Source of the DNA: Mustelus asterias
Lineage: Eukaryota
NCBI RefSeq assembly: GCF_964213995.1
Contig: NC_135806.1
Span: 93,124,001-93,188,000 of the forward strand
DNA length: 64,000 nt
Direction of reading: 5' to 3'
Shown here: positions 5,230 through 64,000 of the stretch, piece after piece
Position numbering within the stretch: the stretch's first letter is position 1
How the letters are laid out: each line of letters starts with the position of its first letter
The notes under the pieces: generated by a model
Seen by the model: the letters and a program-made list of their open reading frames with translations, nothing else
What the model was told of the DNA's origin: nothing
Database searches by the model: none
Made by a program: the position numbers and the translations under genes

Positions 5230-7260
5230 GGCAGTGAAGTGCCTTACCTAAAGATGAGGTGCTATTCCACTAGCTTATGTTGTGCTTTATTGGAGCAGTA
5301 AAGAAGATTGGGGACAGAGAGGTTAGAATAGGAGTGTGTGGAGAATTAAAATGATAGCTAACTGGAAGTTCAAGGTCACAGTTGTCATCTGAACCGAGGT
5401 GTTCCACAAAGTAGTTACCCAATCTGTGTTTGGTCTCCCCAATGTAGAGAAGATTGCATCATGACCTGCAAATACTATACTACATTGAAAGAAGTACCAG
5501 TAAATTGTTGTTTCACCCAGGTATATTTGAGTTCCTGGACAGTGGGAAGATAAAGAGTATTTGTTGCATCATGTGGTTGCATGGGAAGGCATGATGAGAT
5601 GGAGAGGAGATGCTCTGAGGAATGGAGCAGCGCACCAAGGTGCTGCAGGGGAGACGGTCCCTGCAAAATGTAAGGGGAAGGGAAGATGTTTGGTGGTATC
5701 ATCCTGAAGATGGTCAGAATGGTGGAGGATGATCCATTGGAATGGTGGAGACTGATTGGGTGGAAGATGAGAACAAGAGAAACATTATCCCAGATCTGGG
5801 CGAGTGCAGAGCAGGAATGTAGGAAACAGTATGAACATGGTCAAGGACCCAGTCAACCACATCAAAGAGGAATCTTTGGTTGTAAAAGGAAGATGTAATG
5901 GAAGCACTGGTGTGTAAGGTGGCATTATCAGTACAAATGTCAAGAAGAAATGGAGGATGGAATAGAATCCTTAAATGAAGCAGATGGGAGACTGTATTGT
6001 CAAGGTAGCTGTCAGTGGGTATATAGTGGATATTGATCAGTAGCCTATTCTCACAAATGGAGAAAGTCCAAGTCTTCCCTTGCACTACGTGGTGAGGGAA
6101 GGTGGAATAGTCAGGATGAGAGTAGAAAATGGCACAGATCCAATCCATTTTTTCCATTACTTTGATGATTGTCGGGTCATACGGTTGGAGGCCTTGGCCA
6201 GCAGATCTCCAGGGGGCCACAATGGTTTAGCATTGCTGCCTCAGCTCCATGGATTCTGGTTCGATTCCAGCCTTGGGTGACTGTTCTCCTTGCATCCTCA
6301 TGGGTTTCCTCTGGGTGCCCCTGTTTCCTTCCACAGTACAAAGATGTGCAGGTTAGGTGGATTGGCCCTGCTAAATTGATCCTTAGTGTCCCAAGGTGTG
6401 TAGGTTAGATCGATCAGCCATGAGAAATCTGTGAGGTTATGGGGATAAGGCGGAGGAGAGAACCTGAGTAAGATACTCTGTCAGAGATTCAGTGCAGACT
6501 CGATGGGCTGAATGTTCCCTTCTGCATGTAGTGCTTCTGAGATCCATGGCGGTCAGAGAAACAAAGGTTTGGTGGTGTGTTCGTGGGAAAGGCTTGATGG
6601 TGGCGTCATGGTTTGGGAGAGTTAGGAGAAGATATTAGAGAGTTGGCATTTAGCCTCCACAATGTGGAAGTTGGTTCGCCAAAGAAAAGCAGCTGCATGC
6701 TATAACAATATTACCTTTGGGATTGAGAAACAGAGTGCTGCAAATTCAGAAGGAGGTAGGTTAAAGTGACTGGAGTGGCGGAACTGAGACAGCCAATGTC
6801 AGGCTGACAGTTCTCAATGAAACAACCTAAAGACGGTAGGAGACCAGAGGGAGGGGTCTAGGTGGAATGAGAATTTTGAAGATGGAAGAAGGGTGCACTC
6901 TGGGAAAACTGCTGGCAAAAAATATAAGCACGGATGTAAAGGCATTGAAAACAGCTCAGCATCATGCCATATTCCAAAATTAATTGAGATGGAGCGGAAA
7001 GGAGATGAAGCTGACATCTATGCTGCGGACTGATCATATGAAATCAAAAAGGGCAAGGTGAGAGATGGTAGTGAAAGCATGACAAAGGGTGAGATGTAAG
7101 GGCTCAGAGGCAAGTGAAGGGGAAGCTAGGCCTGGAGGGACATTGGTATCCAAGACTTGTTGAAGGTTGCGATCCTTAACTTGAAAGGAAAAGAAGTTTT
7201 CTTTGTTAAAAGTGCTGGATGGTATGAAGGATGAAGTGAAATTGGAGCAGGACAGCTTTA
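5230..7260 (-). mobile_element. Decayed Penelope-like element (GIY-YIG and upstream ORF remnants), interrupted by a SINE
   Basis: 5250..5900 is homologous to the GIY-YIG region at 52840..53400 (gatgaggtgct.ttcc...ggtctccccaatgtag). Confidence 0.65.
6213..6545 (+). mobile_element. HE1-like V-SINE
   Basis: tRNA-like head (ggttcgattcc B box), V-domain tgggtttcctctgggtg..ccacagt.caaagatgtgcaggttagg, and a CR1-like tail. Confidence 0.8.
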
Positions 7261-7261
7261 A

Positions 7262-7545
7262 GAACATAAGAACGAGGAGCAGGAGTAGGCAATTCAGCCC
7301 CTTGAGTCTACTTTGCCATTCAGCACAATCATGGCTGATCTTGTCTCAACCTCAACTCCACTCTCCTGCCCATTTTCCATAACCCTTCAACCCATTACCA
7401 ATTAATAATCTGTCCATTTCCTCAAAATTACTCAATGTCCTAGCATCCACTGCTCTCTGGGGCACTTTTTGAGAGAAATAGTTTCTTCTTATCTCCATTT
7501 TAAATCTGCTACCACTGATCCTAAAACAATGATCTCTTTTCTAGT
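7262..7545 (-). mobile_element. CR1 LINE 3' end fragment
   Basis: agaacataagaac..ggagcaggagtaggc..ttcagcccctt is the reverse complement of a CR1 3' tail (compare 60540..60596). Confidence 0.7.
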
Positions 7546-7939
7546 ATGATTCCAATGAAGTAAAATGGTGCATGAGAACTTTCATGCTATATCCACTTAA
7601 ACGGGAAAAAAATATCATGGCAGTATTTGAAATAGAATTTATCCTTTCAAATCTGCATTGGGTGGCAGATGGTATTCCTTGTATAGCACGTTCCTGATCT
7701 CAGGAACAGATTAGCAAAGAACATGATGATTGGATTCTCTTAAGTAGGGAGCAGGTTAACATTTCTAAAAGTAGGTTGTGTGTTCCTGTCAATAGTAATA
7801 ATTGTGGGTCACAGCAATCTCTAGCAACTCGCTTGATTGTCACCAGGGACAGAGGGGGGGTTTCTAAGTTTTTCCGATACTTACTTTTTTCCCTCTTCCA
7901 TGGGATTGGAGGTGGTAGGTTGGTCACATAATTAGCTTG

Positions 7940-10200
<2,261 letters not shown>

Positions 10201-12394
10201 TAATAAAAAATATCAGATTAAATCATTTTGTTTGCATTATTTTAACTGTAGCAACTGCCATGAAAATACCATATTTATATTCTCCATGTAAACCCTGACC
10301 TTGGCCATTCAGCTATTTTGTATTTTTCAGCAACAGTACTTTTATATTTGTTCATCTTGTTTATTTTGTTTTTCTGAGTTAGTTTATGCATTATTGTATT
10401 TGATTACCCTTTAAAAAGAAAAGACAATACTGAAAAAGAAGAAATATACAGTGCTACAGGAAAACAAAGTGAGGTAGTGGGATTTCTGAAAGCCAACATG
10501 CCACAAAAATAATAGCCCACATGACCACCTCTTGTGCAGTAAATTTCCATGATTCTGTTACTGAAGCAATGGAGAAACACAAAATTGAGAAAAGATGGTG
10601 CATTGTAAAAAGATATTGTGGAAGACCACAAATATAGCTGAGAAAAATAGTTCCAAATGCAATGTGTCTGAAATTATAAATGAAAACACTGACAATGACA
10701 GGAAAAAAATATATCTCTTTATGCAAAAACAAACAGCGTTGTGTACCTACACCATATGGATTGCTGCAGTTTAAGGCCATTTACCACCACCTTCTCGAGG
10801 GCAATAAATATTGGCTGCGCCAGCGATACCCATATCCTGTGAAAGAATGTTTAAAAGTACCAGTTTTACTGAAATGCGCACAAACTAAATATTTTTCCAT
10901 AATTTGTTGTGTATGGAAGGAAAAATATTAGACTACCTCTTAACCTTTAGGGTACTGAGATGAATGTCTCTTCCATCATTGCAAAGTCTTGTTTTAATAG
11001 CTTGTGTTTGTGCAGTAAAGCACATAAAGGACCTGAATATGCAAGTCTAGCATATTTGTCTTCAAATGAATGATTTCTACCAGTATAATTGAACTTTATG
11101 TTTTTATGACTTTAGAATTTGATTGTTAGGCTGTCTGCACAATTCATAATTTTGACTGAGTTCAACAAGCATCAGGGCTGAGGATTTTTTTTCACCTCGG
11201 GGGGTTGGGGGGGGAACCTTTTTAGATATCCAAATCAGATCAAAAGTGGCAGAGATTGATACTGGATTTAGACCCCATTTATGTTGCCCTGAAATTCCCA
11301 AGCTCTCCTTGAATGGCAGAAGTCGAATCAGTAAAGGCCCTATTGTGGTGAGACGTGTAAGGGGATTTTCTCGGGACTGCCTCTGGTGCCATGTATTGAT
11401 CTGAACTCGGCTAATACAAAGACTCACCAAAGACAGTATGCAGTTAAAGATGTTCTTTATTGACCAATACGCATTGGGAGAGAGACAGCCAGAAGATTCC
11501 AACTTTGTCGTTACAGTATATGTGTAACCCTATTGCCTAGCAGCCTTACCTACACAAATCCAGTAGGTTCAAGGATCGCCCTCCACCTGCAAACCATGGG
11601 AACGGAGAAGGAGTCATTTCCCTCTGTCTGCTAGCTACCACTTATCAGTAGAAGTTGAATACTTCTATTCACAACAAACAGAAGCTAAGTGCCTCCATTA
11701 ATTTTAAAATCTTGGTAGCTTGCAGCTGCAGGGTCTCCTACTGATAACAGAGAATATATTCTGTACCTTGTTTCCAAAGAATGTGGCCTCTCTAGTTCTG
11801 CTTGTTTCCCATTATGCTTTGGGACAGGCTGCATCTTGGCCAAAGCTTACAAGACACTTAAGAATACAATACTTGTTCAAAATTCTCTACCAATGATTAT
11901 ATATGTGTCTATGCAGACAATATCTTCACATGAGATATGGCACACTGTGATCCCTATTCTAAACTACTTTGTTTTGATAGTCTTCAAAATCCCAGGGGTT
12001 TCTGTACCCCCTTCTACAAGATGGCTGGGGCATTCCCGGCCTCCCATCTATTTCTTGCAGTTGTGCCTATGTGTCTGAAGACACTATAATGGAATGTCTA
12101 AGGACATGTCTAATGAATGACCTTTGGGACCTTGCATTTTGCTGCAAATTCAATATAGGCCCAAAATTTGTGGCATTTTTAGATTTTGAGAAATTGTATG
12201 CCAGTTTTTTGACATCCAATGCCTTGAGCTTCTTCTTCCCCAACAGTCAAACATGAAGCCAAGAGCAAACCTGCTCCTCCTCCTGCCCCCAATTCTTGGA
12301 GCAACACAAGGCCTACATCAATGATGAGATCAGATCATGTTAATAACTGACCCTTGCCTACCAATGTGGGATTTTGGGCAGAAGAACTGTTTCT

Positions 12395-12770
12395 AGGAAA
12401 AAATCAGAGGCTGGGAATTCTGCAACAAGTAACTCGCCTCGCATCTCCCCAAAGCCTGTCCACCGTTTACAAGGCACAAGTCAAAAGGTGTGATGGGATA
12501 CTTTCCACATGCCTGTATGAGAGCTGCTTCAACAATCATTGAAGCTAAATATCCTACAGAACAAAGCAGTCCACTTGTTTGGTACCCTTTTCAGCACTTT
12601 ATAAATATTTACTCCCCTCCACTGCAGTAACCCACCATGGTTTCTTTGACAACAACTCCCAAACCCACAGCACCTACTGCATTGAAAGATGAGGGTAGCA
12701 AGTGCATTGCAGCAACACCACCATCTCCCGAGTTACAGATCATCCTGACTATAGAAATAAGAACATTCTG
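12395..12770 (+). mobile_element. Decayed non-LTR retrotransposon ORF2 fragment
   Basis: Translation QRLGILQQVTRLASPQSLSTVYKAQVK. A related minus-strand piece lies at 59280..59830. Confidence 0.55.
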
Positions 12771-13371
12771 GTGAGGAATGTTATTTAAGTACAGTAAGAC
12801 TGGCAACTTTTACATTGTGCTTTGATCTCCTTAGAGACCATTAACTTTTAAAAATAAATTTGAAGGTACAGGTTGATTGCTGAAGGGATGACAACTAGAT
12901 TTCACAATTGAGACTTTTTACTTTAGTGAACAAGACTAAACGCATATTACCAAACATTCTTTTGTAGGCAACATGTTCTTTAAACTACAGAACAGAACTT
13001 TCGCCTTTTACTTTCTATGTAACCAATAAACCCACTTCACAAGTGTACTTTCAAATCACTACAAGCTCAAAGGTTTTCTCAAACCAAAGTCTTCTTAGTT
13101 CCTGAGGATTTATTTTTCTTTTCTTAACCGAGTAATTTTAACCCAGAACTGTCTTTTACAGTGAGGGTTTTTCATGGTGCTTCTCCCTCTAGTGCATGCT
13201 AGGCAAATCTTCCTGCATCGTTTCAAATCCTAACGAATTTGGTCTTTTCAATCCAAGCGTAAGCTTCCACTCTCATTCCTGCAGGGTGAACTACAGTGAC
13301 TTTTGGCCTCTAACTGCGCTCTCTCCCAGATCCTAACAGACTGCCTATGTCTGAGAGTTTCAAGGATAAGT

Positions 13372-13712
13372 GGGCGGCACGGTAGCACAATTGTTAGCAC
13401 TGCTGCCTCACAGCTCCAGGGACCTGGGTTCGATTCCCGGCTTGGGTCACTGTCTGTGTGCAGTTTGCACATTCTCCTCGTGTCTGCGTGGGCTTCCTCT
13501 GGGTGCTCCGGTTTCCTCCCACAGTCCAAAGATGTGCGGGTTAGGTTCATTGGCCATGCTAAAATTGCCCCTTAGTGTCATGGGATGCGTCGATTAGCAG
13601 GTAAAATATGTAGGGATATGGGGGTAGGGCCTGGGTGGGATTGTGGTCGGTGCAGACTCGATGGGCCGAATGGCCTCTTTCTGTACTGTAGGGTTTCTAT
13701 GATTGCTATGAT
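13372..13712 (+). mobile_element. HE1-like V-SINE, young and near full length
   Basis: gggcggcacggtagcaca A box, ggttcgattcc B box, V-domain, and a ttctatgat tail. Confidence 0.92.
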
Positions 13713-15063: not shown

Positions 15064-15559
15064 TAGGGAATAACTTTTGACTTGTAAATTGGAAGACTGA
15101 AATCTACATGATTTGAAGAAAAGGCTGACCAACATCATCTCAGGGCAACGATATGAAGGGAATGGGGGGTCAATAAAAAAAGTGCATAGGCGATCTGTTG
15201 CATGTACTAAGCACATTGCAAAATGAAGCAGCTGTATATTAAAATATTGAGTGTGGCTGTATTTATAAAGTCATAGGGCTGGGAGATGTAATCCAGTTCT
15301 GCCTGCTCTGGACATCTCTGAACCCCTCAGGTTTTGTGAATAGTACAGCGGGAAAGTTACTTATGGACCTATTATAAAAGGTCACTGGGAATGTGTCCTT
15401 GAGGTATAATTACCTTGCAAAGTTCAGATGGCATTTGTAGTCGTTCGTCATGCAAATGCTTCAGTGCATTGCACTCTTTGTTTTTAATATTCTGATTATG
15501 TTCTTAAACTAGAACAATTTGGGACAAATAAGTTTAAAGTCATCAAATTGAGGAATAGT

Positions 15560-16853
15560 CATCATTTGAGGAATAGTATGATCAGAAATAGCCAGCACGG
15601 CTTTGTCCAAGGCAGATCGTGCCTTACGAGCCTAATTGAATTTTTTGAAGATGTAACTATACACATAGACGAGGGAAGAGCGGTAGATGTAGTTTATATG
15701 GATTTCAGCAAGGTGTTTGATAAGGTGCCCCATGCAAGGCATATTGAGAAAGTGAAGGGGCATGGGATACAAGGGGACATTGCCTTGTGGATTCAGAACT
15801 GGCTTGTCCACAGAAGACAGAGTGGTTGTAGATGGGTCTCTTTCAGCATGGAGGTCGGTCACCAGTGGAGTGCCCCAAGGATCTGTTCTGGGACCCTTGC
15901 TCTTTGTGCTTTTTATAAATGACCTGGATGAGGAAGTGGAAAGATGGGTTCGCAAGTTTGCTGATGACACAAAGGTTGGTGGTGTTGTGGATAGTGTAGA
16001 GGGATGTCAGCAGTTGCAACGAGACATAGATAAGATGCAAGACTGGGCGGAGAAGTGGCAGATGGACTTCAACCCAGATAAGTGTGTGGTGGTTCATTTT
16101 GGCAGGTCGAATAGGATGAAAGAATATCATATTACGGGTAAGACGCTTGGCAGTGTGGAAGATCAGAAGGATCTTAGGGTCCGGGTTCATAGGACGCTCA
16201 AAGCAGCGTCACAGGTAGAGGTTGTGGTTAAGAAGGCGTATGGAATACTGGCCTTCATCAATAGAGGAATTGAGTTTAGAAATCGGGAGATAATGCTGCA
16301 GCTGTATAGGACCCTGGTCAGACCCCACCTGGAGTACTGTGCCCAGTTCTGGTCGCCTCATTACAGAAAGGATGTGGAAGTCACAGAAAGGGTGCAGAGG
16401 AGATTTACAAGAATGTTGCCTGGATTAGGTGGCATGCCTTATGAGGATAGGTTGAGAGAGCTAGGTCTTTTCTCCTTGGAGAAGCGAAGGATGAGAGGTG
16501 ACCTGATAGAGGTGTATAAGATGTTGAGAGGTATTGATAGAGTGGATTCTCAGAGGCTTTTACCCAGGGCTGTAATGGTTGCCACAAGAGATCACAGGTT
16601 TAGGGTGCTGGGGAGTAGGTACAGAGGAGATGTTAGGGGTAGGTTTTTCACTCAGAGGGTGGTGGGCGCATGGAATCGGCTGCCGGTAGTGGTGGTGGAG
16701 GCGGATTCGATAGGGTCTTTTAAGAGACTTTTGGATAAGTTCATGGAAGTTAGTAAGATAGAGGGGTATAGGTAAGCCTAGTAGGTAGGGACATGTTCGG
16801 CACAACTTGTGGGCCGAAGGGCCTTTTGTGCTGTAGCTTTTCTATGTTCTAAA
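15560..16853 (+). mobile_element. 5'-truncated CR1/HER1 LINE (RT domain and 3' UTR)
   Basis: ORFs 15548..15922 and 15762..16775 (one frameshift) encode SQHGF, DFSKVFDKVPH, GVPQGSVLGP, KFADDTK and RPHLEYC, ending in a ttctatgttcta tail. Confidence 0.95.
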
Positions 16854-18357: not shown

Positions 18358-18465
<108 letters not shown>

Positions 18466-20093
18466 TAAGTTTCAGCATTCTTTCAGAACAAGGTCAATAT
18501 TTGTAAAATTTCTTCAAGCTATTTTAGGTGCTAGATAAAGGACACTTGAAGCAGAACTCTCTCTGTTAGTAAATGAGATAAATTCAGCACAGATCTAGCA
18601 GCTCAACTGGGCATCCATGCAGTATTATGGGCCATTAGCAGCAGCAGAATTGTATTCAACCACAATCTGTAAACCCCTTGCCAGGCATATCCCTCACTCT
18701 ACCAACAACCCTGGTTCAACGAGGAGTGCAGGAGAACATACCATAAGGAGCACCAGGCATCCCTAAAAATAAAGTGCCAACATGGTGAAGCTCCAGCACA
18801 AGACTATGTACATGTTAATGTGCACAGAGCTAATTGATTCCACAAGCTCTGCACACAATCGGTTGTGAATAGTGGTAGATAATTAAACAATTGAGCAGAG
18901 GAAGAGACTTCACAAACATCCCCATCCTCTATGACGGGGAGCCCAGCATCAATGTTCTCTCATTTTTCCCGTCTATATGCAGATTGAATTTTATTATGTG
19001 CAACAATATCATGGTGATGTGTGCCACCAGTAGAAATAAAAAAAACCTATATATAATGTTCAAAAGTTGCCCTAGGTATAGAAGAATAAAGTATACTACC
19101 CTTAGCCATTGACATGATAACATTCTAGTCCACAAGTGACCAGATTCACTGAATTCAACTTTAGATTTACGGTGGTGGTATTTGAATATACAATGTCCAG
19201 TTGTTTGTCCTATTATTATCAGACTATGTTATATCAATGTTAAAATTTCATTGAGATCCTTGAGTGAAATAGCTAATCTGTTTATGTAGCTGTAATCATG
19301 AGGTCAGACTGATTTTTTTTTTTGAGGGGTGGAAGAAAATCAAAGCCATGGGCATATTTCACACCAACTCCTCTGAAATTCACTTGTACAATGCAAAATA
19401 GCACTTTATTGATTGGATGATGTAGCTAATGAATCTGAAGACTTTTCCATTTCCCAATACTGTTCAGTCCCATGAGCGTGCCAGACGTAACAACCTGGCA
19501 GCCAAATTATTTCATTGTCACTATCTTTTCAAAAAAGTCCTATCATCACTCACTATTAAAAAATATATATAACAATTGTATTGAAAACATATATAACGCA
19601 TGCTATACCATTTCATTATGAATTGTGAAACTGGCAACACCTTTTGAACTTTCATACAGTCCCCAACTTCAAACCATGGTTCCCCCCGCTAGTTCATTAC
19701 ACCTCTTTGTTGGTATGAATCATGTCACCTTCCAAAACCAGCCAGTGCTAAAAATCGCACAAGTTCTGAAATACCCACTTTGCAATGACACTGGCAACAT
19801 AGGGCATCAAGATGTGGGATTCTATCACTCCACCTTATCCCTGGCTGCTGAAAATTGCTGGGAATGGGGACACAAATCCTAGATTTAACCTTCCCAACTA
19901 CTTTTGCGCACGGCAGAACTGGAAAAGTAAGCCCAATGTGTGCAGATATATAGAGTTTTTCAGTAAACTCTCCAGAAAGTTGCTATTAAATTGTTGAGTG
20001 TGTTATCAAAGCCTTGGGCAATGTATATTTACGGATTTGGAATGCTTTCACCATTTATATTTTTCAGCCGTCATACTGGAGTCTTTTAAATAT

Positions 20094-20640
20094 GATGTGG
20101 AGATGCCGGCGTTGGACTGGGGTAAACACAGTAAGAAGTTTAACAACACCAGGTTAAAGTCCAACAGGTTTATTTGGTAGCAAAAGCCACACAAGCTTTC
20201 GAAGCTCTAAGCCCCTTCTTCAGGTGAGTGGGAATTCTGTTCACAAACAGAGCTTATAAAGACACAGACTCAATTTACATGAATAATGGTTGGAATGCGA
20301 ATACTTACAACTAATCAAGTCTTTAAGAAACAAAACAATGGGAGTGGAGAGAGCATCAAGACAGGCTAAAAAGATGTGTATTGTGACAATACACATCTTT
20401 TTAGCCTGTCTTGATGCTCTCTCCACTCCCATTGTTTTGTTTCTTAAAGACTTGATTAGTTGTAAGTATTCGCATTCCAACCATTATTCATGTAAATTGA
20501 GTCTGTGTCTTTATAAGCTCTGTTTGTGAACAGAATTCCCACTCACCTGAAGAAGGGGCTTAGAGCTTCGAAAGCTTGTGTGGCTTTTGCTACCAAATAA
20601 ACCTGTTGGACTTTAACCTGGTGTTGTTAAACTTCTTACT
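20094..20640 (-). mobile_element. Fold-back Penelope-like terminal-repeat insertion (perfect palindrome 20128..20642, 13-bp TSD)
   Basis: 257-bp perfect inverted arms centred on G20385, flanked by GTCTTTTAAATAT at 20081..20093 and 20641..20653. The tail is shared with elements ending at 24528 and 46248. Confidence 0.85.
20541..20580 (+). ncRNA. Minimal hammerhead ribozyme motif (mirror copy on minus at 20190..20229)
   Basis: cac CTGAAGA a GGGGC ttaga GCTTC GAAA gc TT gtg: core boxes, 5-bp stem II, palindromic AAGCTT in the stem III position, cac/gtg stem I. Confidence 0.7.
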
Positions 20641-20820
20641 GTCTTTTAAATATCCAGAGAACATGCAAGAATTTCACTTAAATCAGGGTGCTTGCTAGTT
20701 TATAACTTAAAAACATTTTTCATCGAAACTAAAAGTTCCAATTTGTAAGGAAAATCAGACTAAGTAGAATGCATACTTCTGTATTGAAAAAGTTAATTGA
20801 ACATCCAAGATGTTGAATAG

Positions 20821-21030
<210 letters not shown>

Positions 21031-22206: not shown

Positions 22207-22846
22207 TAAATTTATTTTATCATCTTGTGGAATTTAATATTGTAGATTTATGTTGACCTTTTTGGATGTAAATAAGCAACTCTCTCCATACTTTAATCTT
22301 AAGAAGATGTTGAAAAATTGTGATTTTTCTGTCCATCCAATAATACATTTCTAACAACCATTTAGCAGTATAGAATTTGAATATTGCTAAAAAAGTGAGA
22401 CATGTTGCTGAAAGCTTTAGTCTTGCATTCAAATACAAGGATGCAAAATTTAAAATAATCGCATGTTTGTACCACAAGTTAGTTGGCAGGCCAATCTGAT
22501 TCAAATTATCCAAGAAAAACAAAATATCTAAAATTTGAACAACAGGTTAAGCTGCTACTATGCAGTAGTGATGCAAAGGTATTTCCCATTAATTGGATGC
22601 TGCCAGTCCAAAAATACGTTATGCCTATCACACAACTGAGCACGGTTGCATATAAATTTCAGTGCTGATGTGATTCCAGGTACGTAGGTTGTGCATCCCA
22701 TTGACTGGCTGATCAAATCAAACAGCATGTTCTCCAGTTGTTCATAATAAGCAGAGTACAGAATGTACTCAACAGCCCGAGGTTGCAAAACCCAAACCAA
22801 AACATCTACTGTTAGATGTGATTCCAGAGCCATAAAGGGTGTAGAA

Positions 22847-23739: not shown

Positions 23740-24528
23740 CTTTCTCCATGGTAACACCGTGGCCAATCAGAGTTGAATTGCCCACCAACCCACATCCTTT
23801 CCTCCTGTCGTATAAATTGTTATAATCATTTGAATTTGGCATGTTTTTGTCCTGATGCCTGCAAGATGAGAAGCTTTGGCAACATGTCTCTCTTTTCAGC
23901 AGTATATAGCTTTGCTGTATGCAATCCATTTCTTGAGTATTACTTGCATCTTGGCACTCATCAGGACAGTTCGCAAGAATACCATTAGAAAAGCGAATAA
24001 CAATTCATACTGTATGAGAAGAGAGTGCGCAGGCATAGTATAGGCGGATTGACGATAGCCTGACACCCAACGGTAATCAAGAGTGTGATCAAGAGTTTGT
24101 TTTGGATGAGGTGGGAGACAGCTACTCCCTGGTTTAGCAAGTGGACTCTGGTAGAGGCGTTGCCATGGAGAATGCACCAGAGTACGGTTAACTTCCAAGC
24201 TTTAGTTAAAATTCAAACCAGGCAGGTCGACTTAATTGGTCAAGACGTTGCCACGGAGCATGAACCAGGGAGTAGCTGTCTCCCACCTCATCCAAAACAA
24301 ACTCTTGATCACACTCTTGATTACCATTGGGTGTCAGGCTATCGTCAATCTGCCTATACTGTGCCTGTGTATCTCTCTCCAATTCATTTGACGAAGGAGA
24401 AGCACTCTGAAAGCTTGTGATTTTAAATGAACATGTTGGACTATAATCTGCTATCTGTTGGACTATAACCTGCTGTTGTGTGACCTCTCATCCTGTCCAC
24501 CCCAGTCCAACACCGGCATCTCCACATC
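23740..24528. mobile_element. Composite of Penelope-like terminal repeats with 107-bp inverted repeats
   Basis: Inverted arms at 24028..24134 and 24263..24369, a hammerhead-like motif at 24384..24420, and the tail ccagtccaacaccggcatctccacatc. Confidence 0.6.
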
Positions 24529-26860: not shown

Positions 26861-27552
26861 GAGAAAAGGAGTTCCTTGCGAGGTGTATATTTTATATATG
26901 ATAGAAATAGATCTATATATAACACTGTTATTTTGTACATAACTTCTTGGTTTGCAGGTTTGGGAGCAGTTGATGCACCAAACCCAGAATTTTTTTCTTT
27001 CATCTCTGACATCCAAAGTGATCTGCAGACCAATTTTCTGATCAGTATTTTGAGTAGTTGTGCAAGGCATTAATAAACTGCACCATTGAAGTGACTCCGT
27101 GGTTCGAGTAGTCTCTTGCATAATGGAGACTGGAATTTACATGATTTTTGGGGGGCAGTTATTATCATCAATTTATTTTCCAGGAAAATTTTGAAACTGT
27201 GTAGTTTTCAGTTTGAGGAAGAAAGTGATACTTTTATTCCCACCAACTCATTTTTAATGTAGAATTTGTCGTCTCCTGGAGCTCAATTCTGTTCTTGGTG
27301 ATATCCATGTGCAGGAGTCATCGGATAGTGATGACAACTAGGGACTTCTATTTCTTGGACACTTCCATCATGCCTAGTAAAATAAATGACCTATGGCGAT
27401 AGATCGTTCAATTTGGAATCTTGTCATTATGGATAGTGAGTGTCAGCACAAAGTCAGCATTTGGGCAGTTCTCTCTTTTGGATTTGTAAGATGATGGATA
27501 ATGGCTTGTGCTGGTTACATACATTAATATTAATACTGGTCTGACGAAGGAT

Positions 27553-27860
27553 CATAGAATCCTACAGTGCAGAAAGAGGCCATTCGGCCCATCGAGTCTG
27601 CACCAACCACAATCCCACCCAGGCCCTATCCCCATATCCCTACATATTTACCCACTGATCCTTCTAACCTATGCATCCAGGGACACTAAGGGGCAATTTA
27701 GAATGGCCAATCAACCTAGCCCTCACATCTTTGGACTGTGGGAGGAAACCGGAGCACCCGGAGGAAACTCATGCAGACCCAGGGAGAATGTGTAAACTCC
27801 ACACAGACAGTGACCCGAGCCGGGATTCGAACCCAGGTCCCTGGAGCTGTGAAGCAGCAG
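27553..27860 (-). mobile_element. HE1-like V-SINE inserted into a PLE terminal repeat
   Basis: Reverse complement of the V-domain and tRNA head. The flanks join into ctgacgaagg.tcatcctgactccgaaacgttgg. Confidence 0.88.
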
Positions 27861-28044
27861 TCATCCTGACTCCGAAACGTTGGCTCTATTCTCTCTCCAC
27901 AGATGCTGTCACACCTGCTGAGATTTTCCAGCATTTTCAGCTTTTGTTTTAGATTTCAGCATCCACAGTATTTTGCTTTTAGATTAATATTGCTGTTTTC
28001 ACATCCGAGCAGTAGACATTCAGATTTTTTTGTGTGAGGAATAT

Positions 28045-28365
28045 AGTGCCTCACAGCACTAGGGACCTGGGTTTGATTTCAGCCTTGGGTGACTGTGGGG
28101 AATTTGCACATCCTCCCTATGTCTGCATGGGTTTCCTCCCACAGTCCAAAGATGTGCAGGCTAGGTGGATTGGCCATGCTAAATTGCCCTTAGTGTCCAA
28201 AGATATGTTGGTTAGATGGATTAGCCATGATAAATGTGCCGGGTTACAGGGATAGGACGGAGGGGAAGACTTGGGTGGGATGCCCTTTCAAAGTGTCAGT
28301 GCAAACTTGATGGGCCAGATGGCCTCTTCCTGCACTGTAGGGATTCTATGATTCTGTCATTCTAT
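28045..28365 (+). mobile_element. HE1-like V-SINE
   Basis: gcctcacagcactagggacctgggtttgatt, V-domain, and a ttctatgattc tail. Confidence 0.85.
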
Positions 28366-33860: not shown

Positions 33861-35713
33861 CATCCATATGTTTATCCAATAACCATTTGAATGCTCTTAA
33901 TGTTGACGAGTCCACTACTGCTGCAGGCAGGGCATTCCACGCCCTTACTACTCTGAGTAAAGAACCTACCTCTAGCATCTGTCCTATATCTATCACCCCT
34001 CAATTTAAAGCTATGTCCCCTCGTGCTAGCCAACACCATCCGAGGAAAAAGGCTCTCACTATCCACCCTATCTAATCCTCTGATCATCTTGTATGCCTCT
34101 ATTAAGTCACCTCTTAACCTTCTCTCTAACGAAAACAACCTCAAGCTCCTCAGCCTTTCCTCATACGATTTTCCCACCATACCAGGCAACATCCTGGGAA
34201 ATCTCCTCTGCACCCTTTCCAACACTTTCACATCTTTCCTATAATATGGCGTCCAGAACTGTACGCAATACTCCAAATGCGACTGCACCAGAGTTTTGTA
34301 CAGTTGCAGCATGACCTCCTGGCTCCAAAACTCAATCCCTCTACCAATAAAAGCTAACACACCGTACACCTTCTTAACAACCCTATCAACCTGGGTGCCA
34401 ACTTTCAGGGATCTATGCACATGGACACCCAGATCCCTCTGTTCATCCACACTACCAAGTATCTTACCATTAGCCCAGTACTCTGTATTCCTGTTACTCC
34501 TTCCAAAGTGAATCACCTCACACTTTTCCACATTAAACTCCATTTGCCACCTCTCAGCCCAGCTCTGCAGCCTATCTATGTCCCTCTGTAACCTGCCACT
34601 TCCCTCCGCACTGTCTACAACTCCACCGACTTTAGTGTCATCTGCAAATTTACTAATCCATCCTTCCACGCCCTCATCCAGGTCATTAATAAAAATGACA
34701 AACAGCAGTGGCCCCAAAACAGATCCCTGCAGCACACCACTAGTAACTGAACTCCAGGATGAATATTTCCCATCAACCACCACCCTTTGTTTTCTTACAG
34801 CTAGCCAATTCTTGATCCAAACCACTAAATCACCCTCAATCCCATGTGTCCATATTTTCTGCAAAAGCTTACCATGGGGAACCTTATCAAACGCTTTGCT
34901 GAAATCCATATACACCACATCAACCGCTTTACCCTCATCCACCTCTTTGGTCACCTTCTCAAAGAACTCAATAAGGTGTGTGAGGCACGACCTACCCTTC
35001 ACAAAACCGTGCTGACTATCCCTAATCAAATTATTCCTTTCTAGGTGATTATAAATCCTATCTCTTATAATCCTTTCCAATACTTTGCCCACAACAGAAG
35101 TAAGGCTCACTGGTCTATAATTACCAGGGTTGTCCCTACTCCCCTTCTTGAACAAGGGGACAACATTTGCTATCCTCCAGTCATCTGGCACTGTTCCTGT
35201 AGACAATGACGACACAAAGATCAAAGCCAAAGGCTCTGCAATCTCCTCCCTAGCCTCCCAGAGAATCCTAGGATAAAACCCATCCGGCCCAGGGGACTTA
35301 GCAATTCTGGAAAAGGTAAAAATAGATAACATCTCCTCCTTATGAACATCAATCCCATCCAGTCCAACAGCCTGCATCTCAGTACTCCCCGCGACAACAC
35401 TGTCCCTCTCCAGTGTGAATACTGACAAAAAATATTCATTTAGTGCCTCTCCTGTCTCTACAGACTCCACGCACAACTTCCCACTACTGTCCTTGACTGG
35501 CCCTAATCTTACCCTAGTCATTCTTTTACTCCTGACATACCTATAGAAAGCTTTAGGGTTTTCCTTGATCCTACCTGCCAAAGACTTCTCATGTCCCCTC
35601 CTGGCTCTTCTTAACTCTCTCTTTGGGTCCTTCCTGGCTAACTTGTAACTCTCAAGCGCCCTAACTGAGCCTTCACGTCTCATCTTAACATAAGTCTCCT
35701 TCTTCCTCTTCAC
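33861..35713 (-). mobile_element. Young CR1/HER1 LINE ORF2 segment (613-aa open RT)
   Basis: KSPGPDG, NYRPVSLTS, SQHGF, DFSKAFDKVPH, QGSVLGP and KFADDTK. 5'-truncated and lacking a 3' tail. Confidence 0.95.
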
Positions 35714-35719
35714 AGGAAG

Positions 35720-38117: not shown

Positions 38118-38330
38118 AAATAAAAATGCTGGAAATAATCTGCAAATCAGGCAGCATCTATGGAGAGAAACAGAGGTAAGGTTTCAGGTTAGTGACCTTT
38201 CATCAGAGCTGTTGTGATGTAAGATCATGGCCTGAAATGTTAGCCCTCAATAGATGTTCCCTGATCTGCTGAGTACTTCCAGAATATTTTGCTTCAGACT
38301 TCAAGCATCCGCAGTGTTTTGCTTCTGTAT
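38118..38330. mobile_element. Degenerate fold-back PLE terminal repeat with an intact hammerhead core on minus
   Basis: Arms aaaatgctggaaat..caggcagcatct and agatgttccctga..ttccagaatatttt. Minus 38181..38206 reads CTGATGA a AGGT cacta ACCT GAAAC. Confidence 0.65.
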
Positions 38331-39980: not shown

Positions 39981-40914
39981 GGGAGTGATTTTTTCAGCCC
40001 ATGGTCGCCATCAGAGAGAATGGCCACTGGTTTGAAAATCTGGAATCAGGAAATGCGATTCACTCCAGAGAGATCACGTTTTGCAATTTTCCCCATCCCT
40101 CACAGGGAACGTAGTGAGGTTCACACCCTCAAAGGGTGAGAACCTAATTTAAATGTATTTTAATATAATTAACAGCACCCCATCCACCACCCCCCGCCAT
40201 ATATTCCCCTCAGCCATATTTTCAAACCTCGCTGACATGATGTGATATATTTATTCAGACATGAACCTGTCGTGGGGATCCTTCCTGGGGTGCAAAGTAA
40301 GCATAGCCCCCGGAGGAGAGTGAGTACTGCCCTGGCACAGGATTGCACTGTCAGGTTGGCATGGTGCCAACCTTGCAATGCAACCTATGCCGGGATCAGT
40401 GCCAGGGGCGGATCCTAGTGGGAGCTTCATGGGCAGGGTCCTGTGTGTAGTCTGGGGTTGGGTAGGTGGGGTGGTGGGAAGGGAAAGAGAGAGCGGGAGA
40501 GGGTGATGTTGGCAATGACCATTGGTGATGGGGAGAAGAGAGCACCGGTGACAACTGTTGGTCGGGGGAAAGAGAGGGTGATGCCAGTTATGACTATTGG
40601 GAGGAGGAGAGAGAAGGTGATATTAGCGATGACGGTTTTGTGTGGGGAATGGGGGAGAGAGGGCGTGATGCTGGCTTTTGGTCTGAATCGGGGCACCCTT
40701 TCTAATGGGCTACCCGATACCTGTGGAGCCAGGCTTTACCAGTGTGTTTAGACCCTGCCCTTCAAAATGACAGCGTGAAAAATAACTCCTTGCATTATTT
40801 TTGATAGAGTGCCATGAGATCTGGAGCAAAAATCTACCTATTTCTCTGGAGAGAAACACTCTGATTTTCAGTCAGATTCTGACACTTTGCCATTTTTTTG
40901 TTAAGATTCTGCCC
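39981..40914. mobile_element. Non-autonomous Harbinger-like element with an internal purine-rich minisatellite
   Basis: Termini gggagtgatttt and aagattctgccc. It shares gccaggct..accagtgtgtttag with 57841..58804. Confidence 0.5.
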
Positions 40915-41748: not shown

Positions 41749-42030
41749 GGGTGGCATGGTGGCACAGTGGTTAGCATGCTGCCTCATAATACCAGGGACC
41801 TGAGATCAATTCTGGATTCAGGTAACTGTCTGTGTGGAGTTTGCACATTCTTCCTGTGTCTGCGTGGGTTTCCTCTGGGTGCTCCGGTTTCCTCCCACAG
41901 TCCAAAGATGTGCAGGTTAGGTGGGTTATGGGGTAAATATGTGGAGTTATGGGGATTGGGTCTGGATAAGATGTTCTTTCAGTGCAGACCTGATGGGCTG
42001 AATGGCCTGCTTTTACTGTAGGGACTCTAT
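41749..42030 (+). mobile_element. HE1-like V-SINE
   Basis: gggtggcatggtggcacagtggttagc head, V-domain and CR1 tail. Confidence 0.88.
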
Positions 42031-45600: not shown

Positions 45601-46070
45601 AGTCCTTGAGACCTCCCCGATTGCCACCACAAGATTCTGCTCAATGTTTCAGTTTGATGACCTTTCATCAGAACCCATTTCTGATGAGGCATCATTGATC
45701 TGAAATCGCAAATCTAAAGGAGACCTGGGATGAAAGATTAGATCTCAAACATTAAACTGCAAAAGAGATCTTCCCACTCCTTGCCTAACATCAGCCTACA
45801 CAACTAAAGTTACTTTGAACGTGGTGTGGGCCTCGCCACACTGTGGTAAATTATCAACTGGTGGGATGAGACCTTCAAGTGGACATTAATTGGCCACTGA
45901 AGTGTCTCAATAGTTCCAAGGATCGGCAGCTTACCCTCGCCTCCCACATAAAATTTCAGATAAGTCGGGGTAGGTGGGGAGAGGCTCACCCGTTAGGTTT
46001 TACTTTCCCCCTCACCTTGACACCCACCAGTGGGAGAGCATAAAACCCAGCCCTACCAAAAGTGTTTCCA

Positions 46071-46249
46071 GTCTTACAACACCAGGTTAAAGTCCAACAG
46101 GTTTATTTGGAATCATGAGCTTTCGGAGCACTGCTCCTTCATCACTCCAAAAGCTCATGATTCCAAATAAATAAATGTTGGATTTTAACCTGGTGTTGTG
46201 AGACTTCTTACTGTGCACAACCCAGACCAACACCAGCATCTCCACATTA
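46071..46249 (+). mobile_element. Short fold-back PLE terminal-repeat insertion, same family as 20094..20640
   Basis: ~55-bp inverted arms, tail ccagaccaacaccagcatctccacat, and tgtttcca direct repeats at 46063..46070 and 46253..46260. Confidence 0.75.
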
Positions 46250-47947
46250 TAATGTTTCCATCAGATGATGCAGGCTGGGAATCAAGAGCTAGGACAATGG
46301 TCAACCTTCCCCTCAGTAACTCAGAATAATGAGGCCAAATTAGATCAGCTATCTCAGCAGAGACCAGGGATTGAACTTTCCTTTGCTTGTGTAGTTCAAA
46401 TACTAAAGAAACTCACTAAGCTGTCAAAAAACCCTCCAGAATATCCATTCCTGCATTCTTAAAATGTTAGTGTTGTTTTGAAAGCAGTGATGTATAGAGT
46501 GTAAGCTGTTCTCCATCATTGATGCCTCAATGGGATAAATTTCTCCTTTCAAAGCAGAGATGTTAGAAAGAAATCCAATTGTTCAGTTCTTCTCTGCATG
46601 GATAATTTTAAACCAAGAACTCACTCAGCACTTGAGTGCAAAGTTCTAACTGGCTTGTTGAGCTTTGGGCTTGTGATCGCTTGCTGGTGGAAAAGTGTAC
46701 AATGCTAGTGAGCTAAATTGGTTAAAAATAATACCATTCCATTACCTTTGTGTCACTACCAGTTGACTTAATGAAATAGCAGATGGTACTAAGAAAATAC
46801 AATGACAGCAGCAAAAACTGTGGGCTCTGGGCTCCTGCTGACACCCCACTTTTCTGTTGATATAAACAGTGCATTGCTGGTGATGTAGGCTTTGGGACAA
46901 GAAAATCCACATAATAAAGCATGTTGAACTTTCAGATTCAATGCTGGCAACCCCAGCATTTTCATGTGAAGCACAGCTCCCTATTGGCTGTTAAAGATCA
47001 CAATCATGTCATAGGTTCACACCCAACATCAGCTAACATGGACAAAATACTATAAAAATTTAATAAAAAAATATAAAATAAACCTTTGCACTCCCCCATC
47101 TCCACATACACACACTTTGTTTTTGAAGAAAATCCAGTTTTTGGGACAGGTTGAAATTAAGGTCAGGCACATTTTTGATGTAAGGCATAAGCCTTCAGAA
47201 ATGTCTATAAAATTTCATATTAAACAAGTTTTGTGCTTGGGAGCAAAAGTGTGTATTCTGGTTATAGGTATGCTTTATCCCTCAGTCTTGTCTATACAGT
47301 AATGTTTATGTCATGTTTGTATGCAATGCAGGGTAATCACCTTCAGTAGCTACAAATTTAAAAATTACTTCTTTAATACTAAGTTTATATTTGTCTTCCT
47401 TTCTTACATAATCAGATAGTGTGTAACACTTTCCACATAACCAAAACAATTGTAAAATAAATACAGCTGATTGAAGAAGCCTGTCTAAATAAGAAAGCTT
47501 CTCACATAGAAGTTTTAAGGTGAATCTTTGCTCATTTTTTGTCTCCATATTTCAGCACAGAGAGACATGAATGTTCAAGAAGGTATGTTTGTTTTAACTT
47601 TTGCATTATTGGCAATGTCAATGGACAATTTATCCCCAAAATACAACATTGACAGGATTCCAACCATATCTTGTGTCACCAGAGGTCATGAATAGGTTTA
47701 TGTAGCAACTGCATTCACAGTTCCAAATTTACATTCCAAGTGCAATCGTTTAAACATTGTCCACTTTAACAGAATGTATCCTTCAGGTGTTTGAAAGTTT
47801 ATGTCAAGAAGGCTCTCGACATCCTAAAGCAAGTGACTTACTGGTATTAAGTCTTATTAATTTATTTGTCAAATTGCACTTTAAAATATTTTGCCAAAAT
47901 TTTATGCTAATTTGTATTTAAGAATTTATTGTCTTAAAATTAAGTCA

Positions 47948-49974: not shown

Positions 49975-50291
49975 CATGTGGCATGGTGGCACAGTGGTTA
50001 GCACTGCTGCCTCACAGAGCCAGGGACCTAGGTTCAATTCTGACCTTGGGTCACTGTCTGTGTGGAGTTTACACATTCTCCCCGTGTCTGCGTGAGTTTC
50101 CTCCAGGTGCTCCGGTTTCCTCCTGCTCTCATAGATGTGCAGGTTACGTTAAATTGCCCGTTAGTGTTAGGGGGATTAGCAGGGAAAATATGTGGGGTTA
50201 AGGGGATAAGGCCTGGGTGGGATTGTTGTCGGTGCAGGCTCGAGGGGCCAAATGGCCTCCTTCAGCACTGAAAGGATTTTATGAATCTATG
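49975..50291 (+). mobile_element. HE1-like V-SINE
   Basis: ggcatggtggcacagtggttagcactgctgcctcacag head, V-domain and tail. Confidence 0.88.
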
Positions 50292-57574: not shown

Positions 57575-59070
57575 GTTATAGGATACACAGTACAGAAACA
57601 GGCCATTCAGCCCGAACCATCTATGCTGCTATTAATGCTTCTCTTGAGCCTTCTCACATCTTTCCTCATTAAAATTCACCATTATAACCCACTATTCCCT
57701 TTTCCCTCATATATTTATCTAGTTTTCCCTTTACCTACTATTCAGTTCAGCCATTCCCTGTTGCAGCAAATTCCTCATTCTCGGGTTTCTTGGTAATCAT
57801 TTTAAATTGATTGCCTCTAGTTGTGTTCTTCCCCACAGGAGAGGGTCATTTTCCAGCCTCGCCATGCCTGACACAGATCGATCCTGGAAAATAGCGTGCA
57901 GGCCTGAAAGCGGGTTTCGCCCCTGGCACCAAATAGTTTGCATTTATCCCAATTCCTTTCTACAGGTGCACACTAGATCATGCCCAGAAAGGGTGCGAGG
58001 CTGATTAGCATATTTAAAGTAGCATTTAAATATGCTTAGCCCGTTCAACGCCAGTTTCTACCAGCTCCGGGATCTTGTGAGCTTCTGGTGCGGCGCGATC
58101 CCAGCCAGAATCACTACTGGTCTCTACTAGCGGAGACTAGGTGTGATGGCCACACCTGGGGGGCTCAGAAGCCACTGAAGCCCCCAGGTGGTTGGAGACA
58201 TGGCTGCCCATCTTGCAGTGCCCACCTTGCACTGTGGCAGTGCCCACCTGGCATCCTGGCAGTGTCAGTTTAGGCACTGGGTGCCAGGGGAAGTGCCAAG
58301 GGGGTGAGGCCTGCGTGGGGCCTGGGTGGGGCTGGGGCCTGAGCAGAGGATGTGACAGGGGGGCTATGATTGCGGGGGGGGGGGGGACCATGCGGAGTGG
58401 GGCTATGAAGGAGGGCTATGATGGGGGGGAGTCATAAGGGGTGGGGCATGAAAGTGGGGCATGAGAGGGGGGCATGTCAGAGGTCATGAAGGGAGACCCA
58501 TTAGGAGAGCCTGAAGCCCCCAGGCCAGCAATCTGTGTTAGGAAGAGGATGGGCAAACATGCTGTGCCAATGAGGGCATGGAGGAGGGAGGGGGTCTCCC
58601 AGTGCACTGTGAGATTGGGGTGCCCGCCCATTGAACACAAGCCCAATTGCTTTGCAGCCAGGCTCACCAGTGTGTTTAGGCTCTGCTCCTCCCAGAATCG
58701 GTGCACAATTCACCAATCTTCCAAAAAGCTGAACAGACCAGCACAGATCGCTCCGGTTTTCTAATCATTATAACACTTAGTCATTTTTTTGGACAATCAC
58801 GGCCATCCACGTGTATCCACGCTATCAAAATCTTTCATAATTTTCAATACCTGTCAACCCTCAGCCTTTTTTCAAGAGAAAACAGACCACATCCTTCCCT
58901 GTTATCTGTACCCACACATCTCTGGTACCATCCTTGCAAATCTTCTCTGCACTCTCCAGTGTCTGGTATAATATGGTGACCAGAACTGCACACACTGCTC
59001 CAAATATGGTCCAACCTAAGATTGATACATAAAGTCTCTACTTTCCAATTATGTGCCTCTAGAAATGAAA
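57575..59070 (-). mobile_element. Old CR1 3' fragment split by a DNA element
   Basis: Tail cacagtacagaaacaggccattcagccc at 57586. It resumes at 58805 with ..gaccagaactgcacacactgctccaaatatggt (minus PYLEQCVQFW). Confidence 0.7.
57841..58804. mobile_element. Non-autonomous Harbinger-like element with a G-rich interior
   Basis: Inserted within CR1, with termini gagggtcattttcc and ggacaatcacggcc. Homologous to 39981..40914. Confidence 0.55.

Positions 59071-61356: not shown

Positions 61357-64000
<2,644 letters not shown>

What the first reader, a model, noticed from the sequence alone, without database searches (positions are those of the whole stretch)
20081..20653. Perfect 515-bp palindrome in RIOK2 intron 5: a young, ORF-less, hammerhead-bearing Penelope fold-back insertion
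Seen: 20128..20384 is the exact reverse complement of 20386..20642 around a single G (20385), which explains the two identical mirror ORFs. A 34-nt unpaired extension lies on one side (20094..20127), and a 13-bp direct repeat GTCTTTTAAATAT flanks the unit. Established: Penelope-like elements often have inverted terminal repeats with a short (~35 bp) extra 3' tail and carry minimal hammerheads. Inference: this is a very recent insertion made only of PLE terminal sequence, either a fold-back product of PLE reverse transcription or a self-propagating non-autonomous palindromic retroelement. It would put a 257-bp perfect dsRNA hairpin ~195 nt upstream of the acceptor for the catalytic-loop exon of an essential ribosome-biogenesis kinase.
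Basis: partly seen in the sequence, partly recalled or inferred. Interest (0 to 1): 0.85.

Follow-up and report, generated by a model that had tools for sequence, protein, structure and literature searches.

The report
Inverted Penelope retroelement end in shark
A real, perfect 515-base DNA palindrome in an intron of a shark's RIOK2 gene is two back-to-back copies of the end of a Penelope-type jumping gene, a known and apparently common by-product of how these elements insert, notable mainly for being unusually clean.

Summary
Observation confirmed: 257-bp arms (20128-20384, 20386-20642) around one G, a 34-nt one-sided extension and a 13-bp flanking repeat, 195-197 nt upstream of exon 6 of an intact RIOK2 gene. 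The spliced product is identical to the protein NCBI names for Mustelus asterias. Each arm carries a motif fitting the published minimal PLE hammerhead (0 of 300 shuffles). Head-to-head inverted pLTR plus a 30-40-nt tail, a TSD and a palindromic junction is a published Penelope-like (PLE) insertion structure. Most likely this is a one-off, heavily 5'-truncated PLE insertion, made by priming from both nicked strands or by cDNA fold-back. A self-propagating palindrome is unlikely: a sister copy at 46070-46247 and two database translations share the 3' end but invert at other points. 'Very recent' is unproven: zero mismatches allows up to about 8 million generations at a measured shark rate. The hammerhead is predicted to be trapped in dsRNA in either direction. 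The parent RT/endonuclease ORF was not retrieved. Extra: the antisense arm adds a consensus splice donor that could define a stop-containing exon, masked once the hairpin forms. New member of a known kind; modest interest.

The parts
20081..20093 (+). Left copy of the 13-bp AT-rich target-site duplication
   Evidence: the 13-mer occurs only here and at 20641; chance about 8e-8 per site
20094..20127 (-). PLE 3' 'tail' (34 nt; 36 nt if the 2-nt junction microhomology is counted), present on one arm only
   Evidence: the same terminus ends the copies at 24528 and 46247 and four database translations
20128..20384 (-). Tail-bearing arm (PLE terminal repeat; element sense on the minus strand, antisense in RIOK2 pre-mRNA)
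20385..20385 (.). Single-base centre (G) of the head-to-head junction
20386..20642 (+). Tail-less arm (same sequence, element sense on the plus strand); its last 2 nt overlap the right TSD
20641..20653 (+). Right copy of the target-site duplication
20544..20580 (+). Minimal type-I hammerhead motif: 3-bp helix I, core with extra base, 5-6-bp helix II, GAAA, 2-nt palindromic helix III, predicted cut after 20577
   Evidence: (2 hits in the window, 0 of 300 shuffles); consensus in PMC4209133 supplement
20190..20226 (-). Mirror copy of the minimal hammerhead
20221..20229 (+). Consensus 5' splice-donor 9-mer created in RIOK2 sense by the antisense hammerhead core; one of only two such 9-mers on the plus strand of the window
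   Evidence: predicted pairing 0.36-0.78 before and 0.99-1.0 after its complement is transcribed
20068..20223 (+). Hypothetical 156-nt cryptic exon (candidate acceptor AG at 20066-20067) with an in-frame stop after 7 codons; inference only
20596..20601 (+). AATAAA hexamer in the sense arm, predicted paired in the hairpin
18465..20837 (+). Host RIOK2 intron 5 (2373 nt, GT-AG)
20838..21029 (+). RIOK2 coding exon 6 (catalytic loop HGDFNEFN, and DFPQ)
46070..46247 (+). Older sister insertion: head-to-head inverted ends joined asymmetrically inside the hammerhead, 42-nt one-sided tail, probable decayed 13-bp TSD (10 of 13)
24380..24528 (+). Degenerate sister 3' end (mutated hammerhead plus tail) with a different upstream sequence

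Best explanation
A single, dead-on-arrival insertion of an endonuclease-type Penelope-like retroelement (PLE), reduced to two head-to-head copies of its 3' terminal ~255-290 nt. SHOWN: the anatomy (TSD, tail, inverted terminal repeat, minimal hammerhead, AT-rich target, shared 3' end and variable inversion point among relatives). INFERRED: the PLE protein, supplied by an autonomous copy elsewhere, nicked both strands 11-13 nt apart. The top-strand end primed reverse transcription at the distal start (tail end). The second arm arose most likely (about 55%) by the bottom-strand end priming a second cDNA at the proximal start 34-36 nt further in, the two cDNAs then annealing at a short native inverted repeat. 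Otherwise (about 40%) the first cDNA snapped back on such a repeat and copied itself. Repair left a perfect palindrome with a tail on one arm. The template was uncleaved RNA, since the arms run about 190 nt past the predicted hammerhead cut. In place it is inert: in either direction the hammerhead is transcribed after its complement and is predicted fully paired. In RIOK2 pre-mRNA it should form a 257-bp hairpin that is a likely ADAR substrate and that hides the new donor and the AATAAA, so exon 5-6 splicing is probably little affected.
For: Exact anatomy. Hammerhead fits the published PLE consensus feature by feature, 0 of 300 shuffles. Published PLE structure: adjacent inverted pLTR, optional 31-bp tail, 8-10-bp TSD, palindromes at head-to-head junctions (PMC3846280); 30-40-bp tail often at one end only (PMC8557442). 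In vitro, an anole PLE cuts and extends both strands at AT-rich sites, is predicted to be a dimer, has two RT starts that bracket the tail, and uses unprocessed RNA (PMC11167929). Here helix II to arm end is 86 nt and to tail end 122 nt. Relatives end at the same base and run into unrelated flanks: 2 copies in the window and 4 of 4 database hits. Inversion points differ: inside the hammerhead in the 46070 copy and in P0123, and at a native 5-bp inverted repeat (20571-20587 equivalent) in P0124 (tentative). No coding potential: no Pfam match, 0 hits in 1.84 billion representatives. Hammerhead core, donor and AATAAA paired at 0.998-1.0.
Against: No RT or GIY-YIG ORF could be linked to this terminus, so PLE membership rests on non-coding hallmarks. 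The parent's sequence upstream of the centre was not obtained, so the native inverted repeat that both mechanisms need at 20385 is unverified. Only one other inverted copy is seen at DNA level, and it is a different subfamily. P0123 and P0124 are protein translations of short unnamed contigs, could be library chimeras, and are of unknown organism. The tail stem-loop of this copy is not significant on its own (z -0.94; the 46174-46250 copy z -2.82). Rfam finds no hammerhead. The anole work is on a Poseidon element and the clade here is unknown.
Confidence: 0.85

Rival explanations
1. A self-propagating non-autonomous palindromic retroelement: the whole 547-nt hairpin is transcribed (minus strand, free 3' tail) and copied in trans by PLE protein, so many copies share this centre.
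For: A minus-strand transcript would end in a complete, unpaired tail. pLTR sequence alone suffices for trans-mobilisation in rotifers. Non-autonomous hammerhead-bearing PLE derivatives (retrozymes) are reported, including in one chondrichthyan. The genome itself could not be searched.
Against: Three relatives invert elsewhere. The centre-spanning frame has 0 hits in 1.84 billion representatives, although the 3'-end frame finds 4 relatives in the 5.8-billion set; the libraries differ and sample sharks thinly, so this is weak. The template would be a 257-bp duplex with the proximal RT start and hammerhead buried.
Confidence: 0.08
2. An older or longer insertion that became a perfect palindrome later: internal deletion between inverted pLTRs, or arm-to-arm conversion erasing mismatches.
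For: Longer PLE copies flanked by inverted pLTRs with internal deletions are described. A templated inverted duplication of about 116 nt sits 4 kb away (24020-24134 against 24263-24378, 95%), so local inversions occur. Correction of quasi-palindromes by template switching is recalled knowledge.
Against: The TSD copies are identical at 13 of 13 against 10 of 13 in the older sister. Deletions in palindromes usually leave central asymmetry (recalled), not a 1-nt spacer. The sister's arms have kept 5 mismatches and a 2-nt indel in about 58 nt, so homogenisation is not general.
Confidence: 0.05
3. Sequencing or assembly artefact (fold-back read, or polishing that equalised the arms).
For: Perfect palindromes are a known long-read artefact (recalled). 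Tandem/inverted PLE structures trouble short-read assemblies. Reads were not available.
Against: A fold-back read would mirror upstream host sequence. Here the symmetry stops at the element boundary, is framed by a TSD and a canonical tail, and unique sequence continues through exons 6-10 in order with an intact reading frame. A diverged copy of the same design lies in the same window.
Confidence: 0.02

Closest known systems
EN+ Penelope-like element insertions with inverted pLTR and tail (Adineta vaga Pen2a/Pen2/Pen3a; Drosophila virilis Penelope; Naiad)
   Same: Head-to-head inverted terminal repeat, 30-40-nt tail on one end, short TSD, palindromic junction (PMC3846280, passages and Discussion; PMC8557442, passages).
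   Different: No ORF and no direct pLTR remain, so the whole insert is the inverted junction. The TSD is 13 bp against 8-10 bp in the rotifer examples. The centre is exact with a 1-nt spacer.
Minimal type-I hammerheads of metazoan PLEs (Cervera and de la Pena 2014)
   Same: Fits the consensus in the supplement; the painted-turtle row has the same GCUU core followed by CCAAAUAAA. Pairs of motifs 100-700 bp apart on opposite strands are reported in Schistosoma; here the two are about 355 bp apart.
   Different: No shark motif is listed in the supplementary file searched (one file not held). Activity was not tested; such motifs need dimers or protein help.
Poseidon element of Anolis carolinensis (PAc), reconstituted in vitro
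   Same: AT-rich target, tail bounded by two ends, hammerhead about 85-120 nt upstream of the 3' ends, uncleaved template.
   Different: In PAc the ORF starts inside the hammerhead. Here no conserved frame runs from the hammerhead through the tail. That paper does not discuss inverted insertions ('inverted' occurs once, about an oligo).
Non-LTR retrozymes (non-autonomous PLE derivatives)
   Same: ORF-less, hammerhead-bearing, pLTR-related, about 300 nt per unit (bioRxiv 10.64898/2026.07.22.740005, first part and passages).
   Different: Retrozymes are head-to-tail tandems with at least two hammerheads on one strand. This is head-to-head, with one hammerhead per strand and no tandem repeat.
Palindromic MITEs such as Xenopus Harbinger repeats
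   Same: Self-folding repeat expected to be hyper-edited by ADAR (PMC5625713, passages).
   Different: DNA-transposon MITEs have a fixed symmetric consensus. Here the ends are asymmetric (tail), the centres vary and a retroelement hammerhead is present.

Membership tests
EN+ Penelope-like element | Autonomous parent with telomerase-like RT and GIY-YIG endonuclease ORF between pLTRs of this sequence | not testable with these tools
   No shark genome is searchable. No GIY-YIG match among 150 window frames scanned (149 of the 274 frames of at least 62 aa plus one of 60 aa). The four relatives found carry no Pfam domain.
EN+ Penelope-like element | Minimal type-I hammerhead in the terminal repeat | tested here: met
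   2 hits (both arms), 0 of 300 shuffles; no Rfam match
EN+ Penelope-like element | Inverted 5'-truncated copy joined head-to-head | tested here: met
   orientation fixed by hammerhead and tail
EN+ Penelope-like element | 30-40-nt tail on one end | tested here: met
   34-36 nt here, 42 nt in the sister copy
EN+ Penelope-like element | Short TSD at an AT-rich target | tested here: met
   13 bp, 11 of 13 A/T; empty allele not seen
EN+ Penelope-like element | Fixed 3' end with variable 5' truncation among copies | tested here: met
   3 window copies and 4 of 4 database translations end at the tail
PLE clade (Neptune, Poseidon, other) | RT phylogeny | not testable with these tools
   No RT is linked to this terminus
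Non-LTR retrozyme | Head-to-tail tandem units with at least two same-strand hammerheads | tested here: not met
   definition
Palindromic MITE / self-replicating palindrome | Copies share both ends and the same centre | tested here: inconclusive
   Three relatives have other centres but belong to sister subfamilies or unknown organisms; the genome was not searchable
Palindromic MITE / self-replicating palindrome | Symmetric terminal inverted repeats reaching both TSD copies | tested here: not met
   34-nt one-sided extension
microRNA precursor | Rfam family score at or above the gathering threshold | tested here: not met
   0 at gathering; all 36 weaker matches are below threshold and the best reflect generic hairpin pairing
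LINE-1 twin-priming 5' inversion | Poly(A) 3' end, and an inverted piece that does not duplicate the direct piece (recalled definition) | tested here: not met
   No poly(A); the two arms are the same sequence

The most novel reading that the evidence does not exclude
The unit is a member of an undescribed class of ORF-less, fully palindromic PLE derivatives that spread as hairpins. A transcript ending in the free 34-nt tail recruits PLE protein, and the hairpin is copied whole with a fixed centre, while silencing its own ribozyme, splice donor and polyadenylation signal so that it is tolerated in introns of essential genes. A lesser but likelier novelty (about 45% overall): the insertion is a clean natural footprint of a two-nick, two-cDNA mechanism linking the two in vitro RT starts to the one-sided tail. 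My paper search for 'Penelope' with 'twin priming' listed 2 papers, neither about PLE mechanism by title or abstract.
Probability: 0.08. Interest if true: 0.7.

Novelty: new member of a known kind. Interest (0 to 1): 0.27.

Why it matters
As a locus it is one of probably very many PLE end fragments in a shark genome: three relatives lie in this 64-kb window. Its value is as an unmutated specimen. How PLEs make inverted repeats and the one-sided tail is called unresolved in PMC8557442. A copy with base-exact junctions, intact TSD and 2-nt microhomology gives precise predictions (nick stagger 11-13 nt, RT starts 34-36 nt apart, native hairpin at the centre) that a genome-wide survey or the existing in vitro system can test. 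It is also a natural test of whether a long perfect intronic hairpin near an acceptor is harmless, edited, or protective against a cryptic donor it brings with it.

Tried and rejected
Rfam: no family at gathering score in the window; sub-threshold miRNA-precursor matches are generic hairpin pairing and were rejected. Mirror ORF as a real protein: no Pfam match, 0 hits in 1.84 billion representatives; its symmetry follows from the palindrome (GTG/GTC at the centre). A 31-nt terminal pattern in bacterial and archaeal genomes, hoping for host contamination: 0 matches. Linking the terminus to an RT protein: the frame that would precede a start codon after the tail is only 20 residues, below the search minimum, so it stayed unsearched; the 52-residue frame gave 3 + 1 domain-less translations. 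Isolated hammerhead folding: the active fold is not the minimum-energy structure (z 0.36), as expected for minimal motifs, so this says nothing on activity. Bacterial promoter scan: at chance level and not relevant to a shark. Tandem-repeat (retrozyme) structure: none over the element. A first exon join with wrong boundaries was corrected. Paper searches listed no paper on ORF-less PLE palindromes in sharks. The library lacks most subscription papers, Repbase/Dfam were not available, figures were not visible, one supplement file of PMC4209133 was not held, and bioRxiv supplements were closed, so this is not evidence of absence. Shark genomes, reads, RNA-seq, and viral and metagenome contig collections stayed unchecked.

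Full report
Observation. The palindrome is exactly as reported: 20128-20384 is the reverse complement of 20386-20642 (257 bp) around G20385, and no other exact palindrome in the window exceeds 12-bp arms. The 34-nt extension is 20094-20127. The 13-mer repeat occurs only at 20081-20093 and 20641-20653, with a chance of about 8e-8 per site. The right repeat overlaps the arm by 2 nt, a microhomology with the element's own continuation, so the insert is 547 bp with a 13-bp duplication or 549 bp with an 11-bp one. The two identical 80-residue frames are a consequence of the symmetry and have no Pfam match and no relative among 1.84 billion representatives.

Host context. The exon at 20838-21029 is the RIO2 catalytic-loop exon. 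Its best hits are shark RIOK2 proteins. Ten coding exons with AG/GT boundaries join to a protein identical at 545 of 545 residues to P0001, named Mustelus asterias RIO2 by NCBI. Intron 5 spans 18465-20837, so the element ends 195-197 nt before the acceptor and the gene is intact.

What it is. Each arm holds a motif with a 3-bp helix I, the CUGANGA core plus one extra base, a 5-6-bp helix II, GAAA, a two-base palindromic helix III and a UH site (20544-20580 and its mirror). A strict descriptor gives these 2 hits in the window and none in 300 dinucleotide shuffles. It agrees with the minimal-hammerhead consensus of metazoan PLEs, and the painted-turtle row has the same core and downstream CCAAAUAAA (PMC4209133; I read parts 1-2 of 4 of the main text and parts 1-2 of 3 of supplement file 2). 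Rfam does not detect it. The overall plan is published. An inverted pLTR adjoining head-to-head, an optional 31-bp tail, an 8-10-bp TSD and palindromes at the junction, read as self-priming, are in PMC3846280 (passages and Discussion). The 30-40-bp one-sided tail is in PMC8557442 (passages) and in a curation guide (PMC8969392, passages). What is missing is the defining RT-endonuclease ORF of the parent, which I could not retrieve, so membership rests on non-coding hallmarks and the clade is unassigned.

Relatives. The last 74-81 nt recur at 24455-24528 and 46169-46247 (82-85% identity). The 46070-46247 copy is itself a head-to-head inversion with an asymmetric junction inside the hammerhead. 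It has a 42-nt one-sided tail, arms differing by 5 substitutions and a 2-nt indel in about 58 nt, and a probable decayed duplication (10 of 13, the best of the offsets tried, tentative). Searching with the 52-residue frame over the tail found 3 longer and 1 similar-length unnamed predicted proteins, without Pfam domains. All 4 stop matching at the tail end. P0123 reads antisense tail and arm, then sense arm and tail, joined at the hammerhead. P0124 begins with 7 residues matching the antisense frame at 6 positions, a match found only at the two arms among 127,954 window 7-mers. It switches to sense where the arm has a native 5-bp inverted repeat. These two are inferences from translations of short contigs of unknown origin. 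Taken together the 3' end is fixed and the inversion point varies in 4 of 4 inverted copies seen, which is the pattern of independent insertion events. The caveat is that they are not all the same subfamily.

Mechanism. An anole PLE protein cuts and extends both strands at AT-rich sites, is predicted to dimerise, starts RT at two sites that bracket the tail, and uses uncleaved RNA (PMC11167929; parts 1-2 of 4 and passages; its text supplements held none of my four terms). Mapped here, the top-strand end of the left duplication is followed directly by cDNA of the tail end. The bottom-strand end of the right duplication is followed by cDNA starting 34-36 nt further in, with 2 nt of pairing. I therefore favour two cDNAs primed from staggered nicks and joined at a native short inverted repeat (about 55%) over one cDNA snapping back (about 40%), mainly because snap-back gives no reason to stop at the tail boundary. 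Both need a small native hairpin at the centre, which I could not check. The tail can pair with upstream arm sequence in all three window copies, significantly only in one. The arms extend about 190 nt beyond the predicted cut (after 20577), so the template was uncleaved.

Age. No mismatch in 257 bp bounds pairwise divergence at 1.2% (95%), about 8 million generations at the epaulette-shark rate of 7e-10 per generation (PMC10587355, passages; computation). That rate is from another species and has a tenfold-wide interval. The copy is clearly younger than its sister, and long perfect palindromes are unstable (recalled), but 'very recent' needs an empty allele.

Consequences. In either direction the hammerhead follows its complement and is predicted fully paired, and the two motifs are never on the same RNA, so the dimer these motifs need cannot form in cis. 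In RIOK2 pre-mRNA the antisense arm supplies a consensus donor at 20221-20229, one of two such 9-mers on the plus strand. With a candidate acceptor at 20066-20067 it would define a 156-nt exon with a stop after 7 codons. The donor is predicted partly free until its complement is made and fully paired afterwards. This is inference without RNA data. Editing is likely and unremarkable: Penelope is heavily hyper-edited in lizard and palindromic repeats in frog (PMC5625713, passages).

Rivals and verdict. A replicating palindromic family is not excluded because the genome could not be searched, but the evidence in hand points away from it (0.08). It also fails the retrozyme definition (bioRxiv 10.64898/2026.07.22.740005, part 1 of 5 and passages). 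Later perfection of an older insert (0.05) and artefact (0.02) are unlikely for the reasons listed. My paper searches (listings only unless stated above) showed no report of this shark family or of ORF-less PLE palindromes as a class, but Repbase/Dfam, figures and many journals were out of reach. Verdict: real, correctly recognised as PLE-derived, a new member of a known kind, useful as a clean mechanistic specimen; interest 0.27.

Noticed in passing
window 46058-46260: Older sister PLE end inversion with an asymmetric junction in the hammerhead, 42-nt tail and probable decayed 13-bp TSD.
   Followed up: yes
window 23840-24528: Cluster of repeat fragments: a 116-nt inverted duplication (24020-24134 against 24263-24378, 95%) 128 nt apart, whose right copy runs into a degenerate PLE end. 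The left copy looks like a templated inverted insertion into another repeat. Hammerhead-like remnants near 23850 (+) and 23950 (-) were seen by eye.
   Followed up: partly
window 20076-20658: The reconstructed empty site has a 5-bp inverted repeat (CTGGA/TCCAG) bracketing the duplicated 13-mer; may be chance.
   Followed up: no
window 20094-20140 (minus strand), 24490-24528, 46205-46247: The arm end and tail resemble an intron 3' end (branch-like CTTAC, pyrimidine run, conserved CAG in all three copies), possibly the acceptor of the parent's own intron; by eye only.
   Followed up: no
P0123, P0124 and window 46070-46247: Three of four inverted copies seen have their junction in or next to the hammerhead, P0124 within a few bases of the predicted cut. 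RT may often stall or run off there. Rests partly on protein translations.
   Followed up: partly
window 27540-27910; also 38178-38206 (-) and 45643-45671 (-): A second repeat family with a hammerhead-like CTGANGA...GAAA end; the copy at 27540 appears split inside the motif by a SINE-like insertion.
   Followed up: no
window 33875-35719 (-), 15488-16772 (+), 8267-8515 (+): Reverse-transcriptase (RVT_1) frames, one of 615 aa, probably LINE remnants; not classified. The first two are related in inverted orientation.
   Followed up: no
window 61357-61953 (+): Frame matching LIX1 (PF14954), the neighbouring gene; a Myb/SANT-like frame at 62153-62407 suggests a Harbinger-type transposon remnant.
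   Followed up: no
window 6235-13703, 27548-28355, 41751-42011, 49978-50288: Multi-copy SINE-like family in both orientations, including an inverted pair 27548-27856 / 28047-28355 (71%) inside RIOK2 intron 8, another potential dsRNA.
   Followed up: no
window 58007-58036 and 40331-40394: Short inverted repeats (12-bp exact arms with a 6-nt spacer; a 65-nt 77% self-complementary stretch).
   Followed up: no
window 22381-22427 (-): 47-nt fragment 81% similar to 23860-23905, likely another repeat end in RIOK2 intron 7.
   Followed up: no
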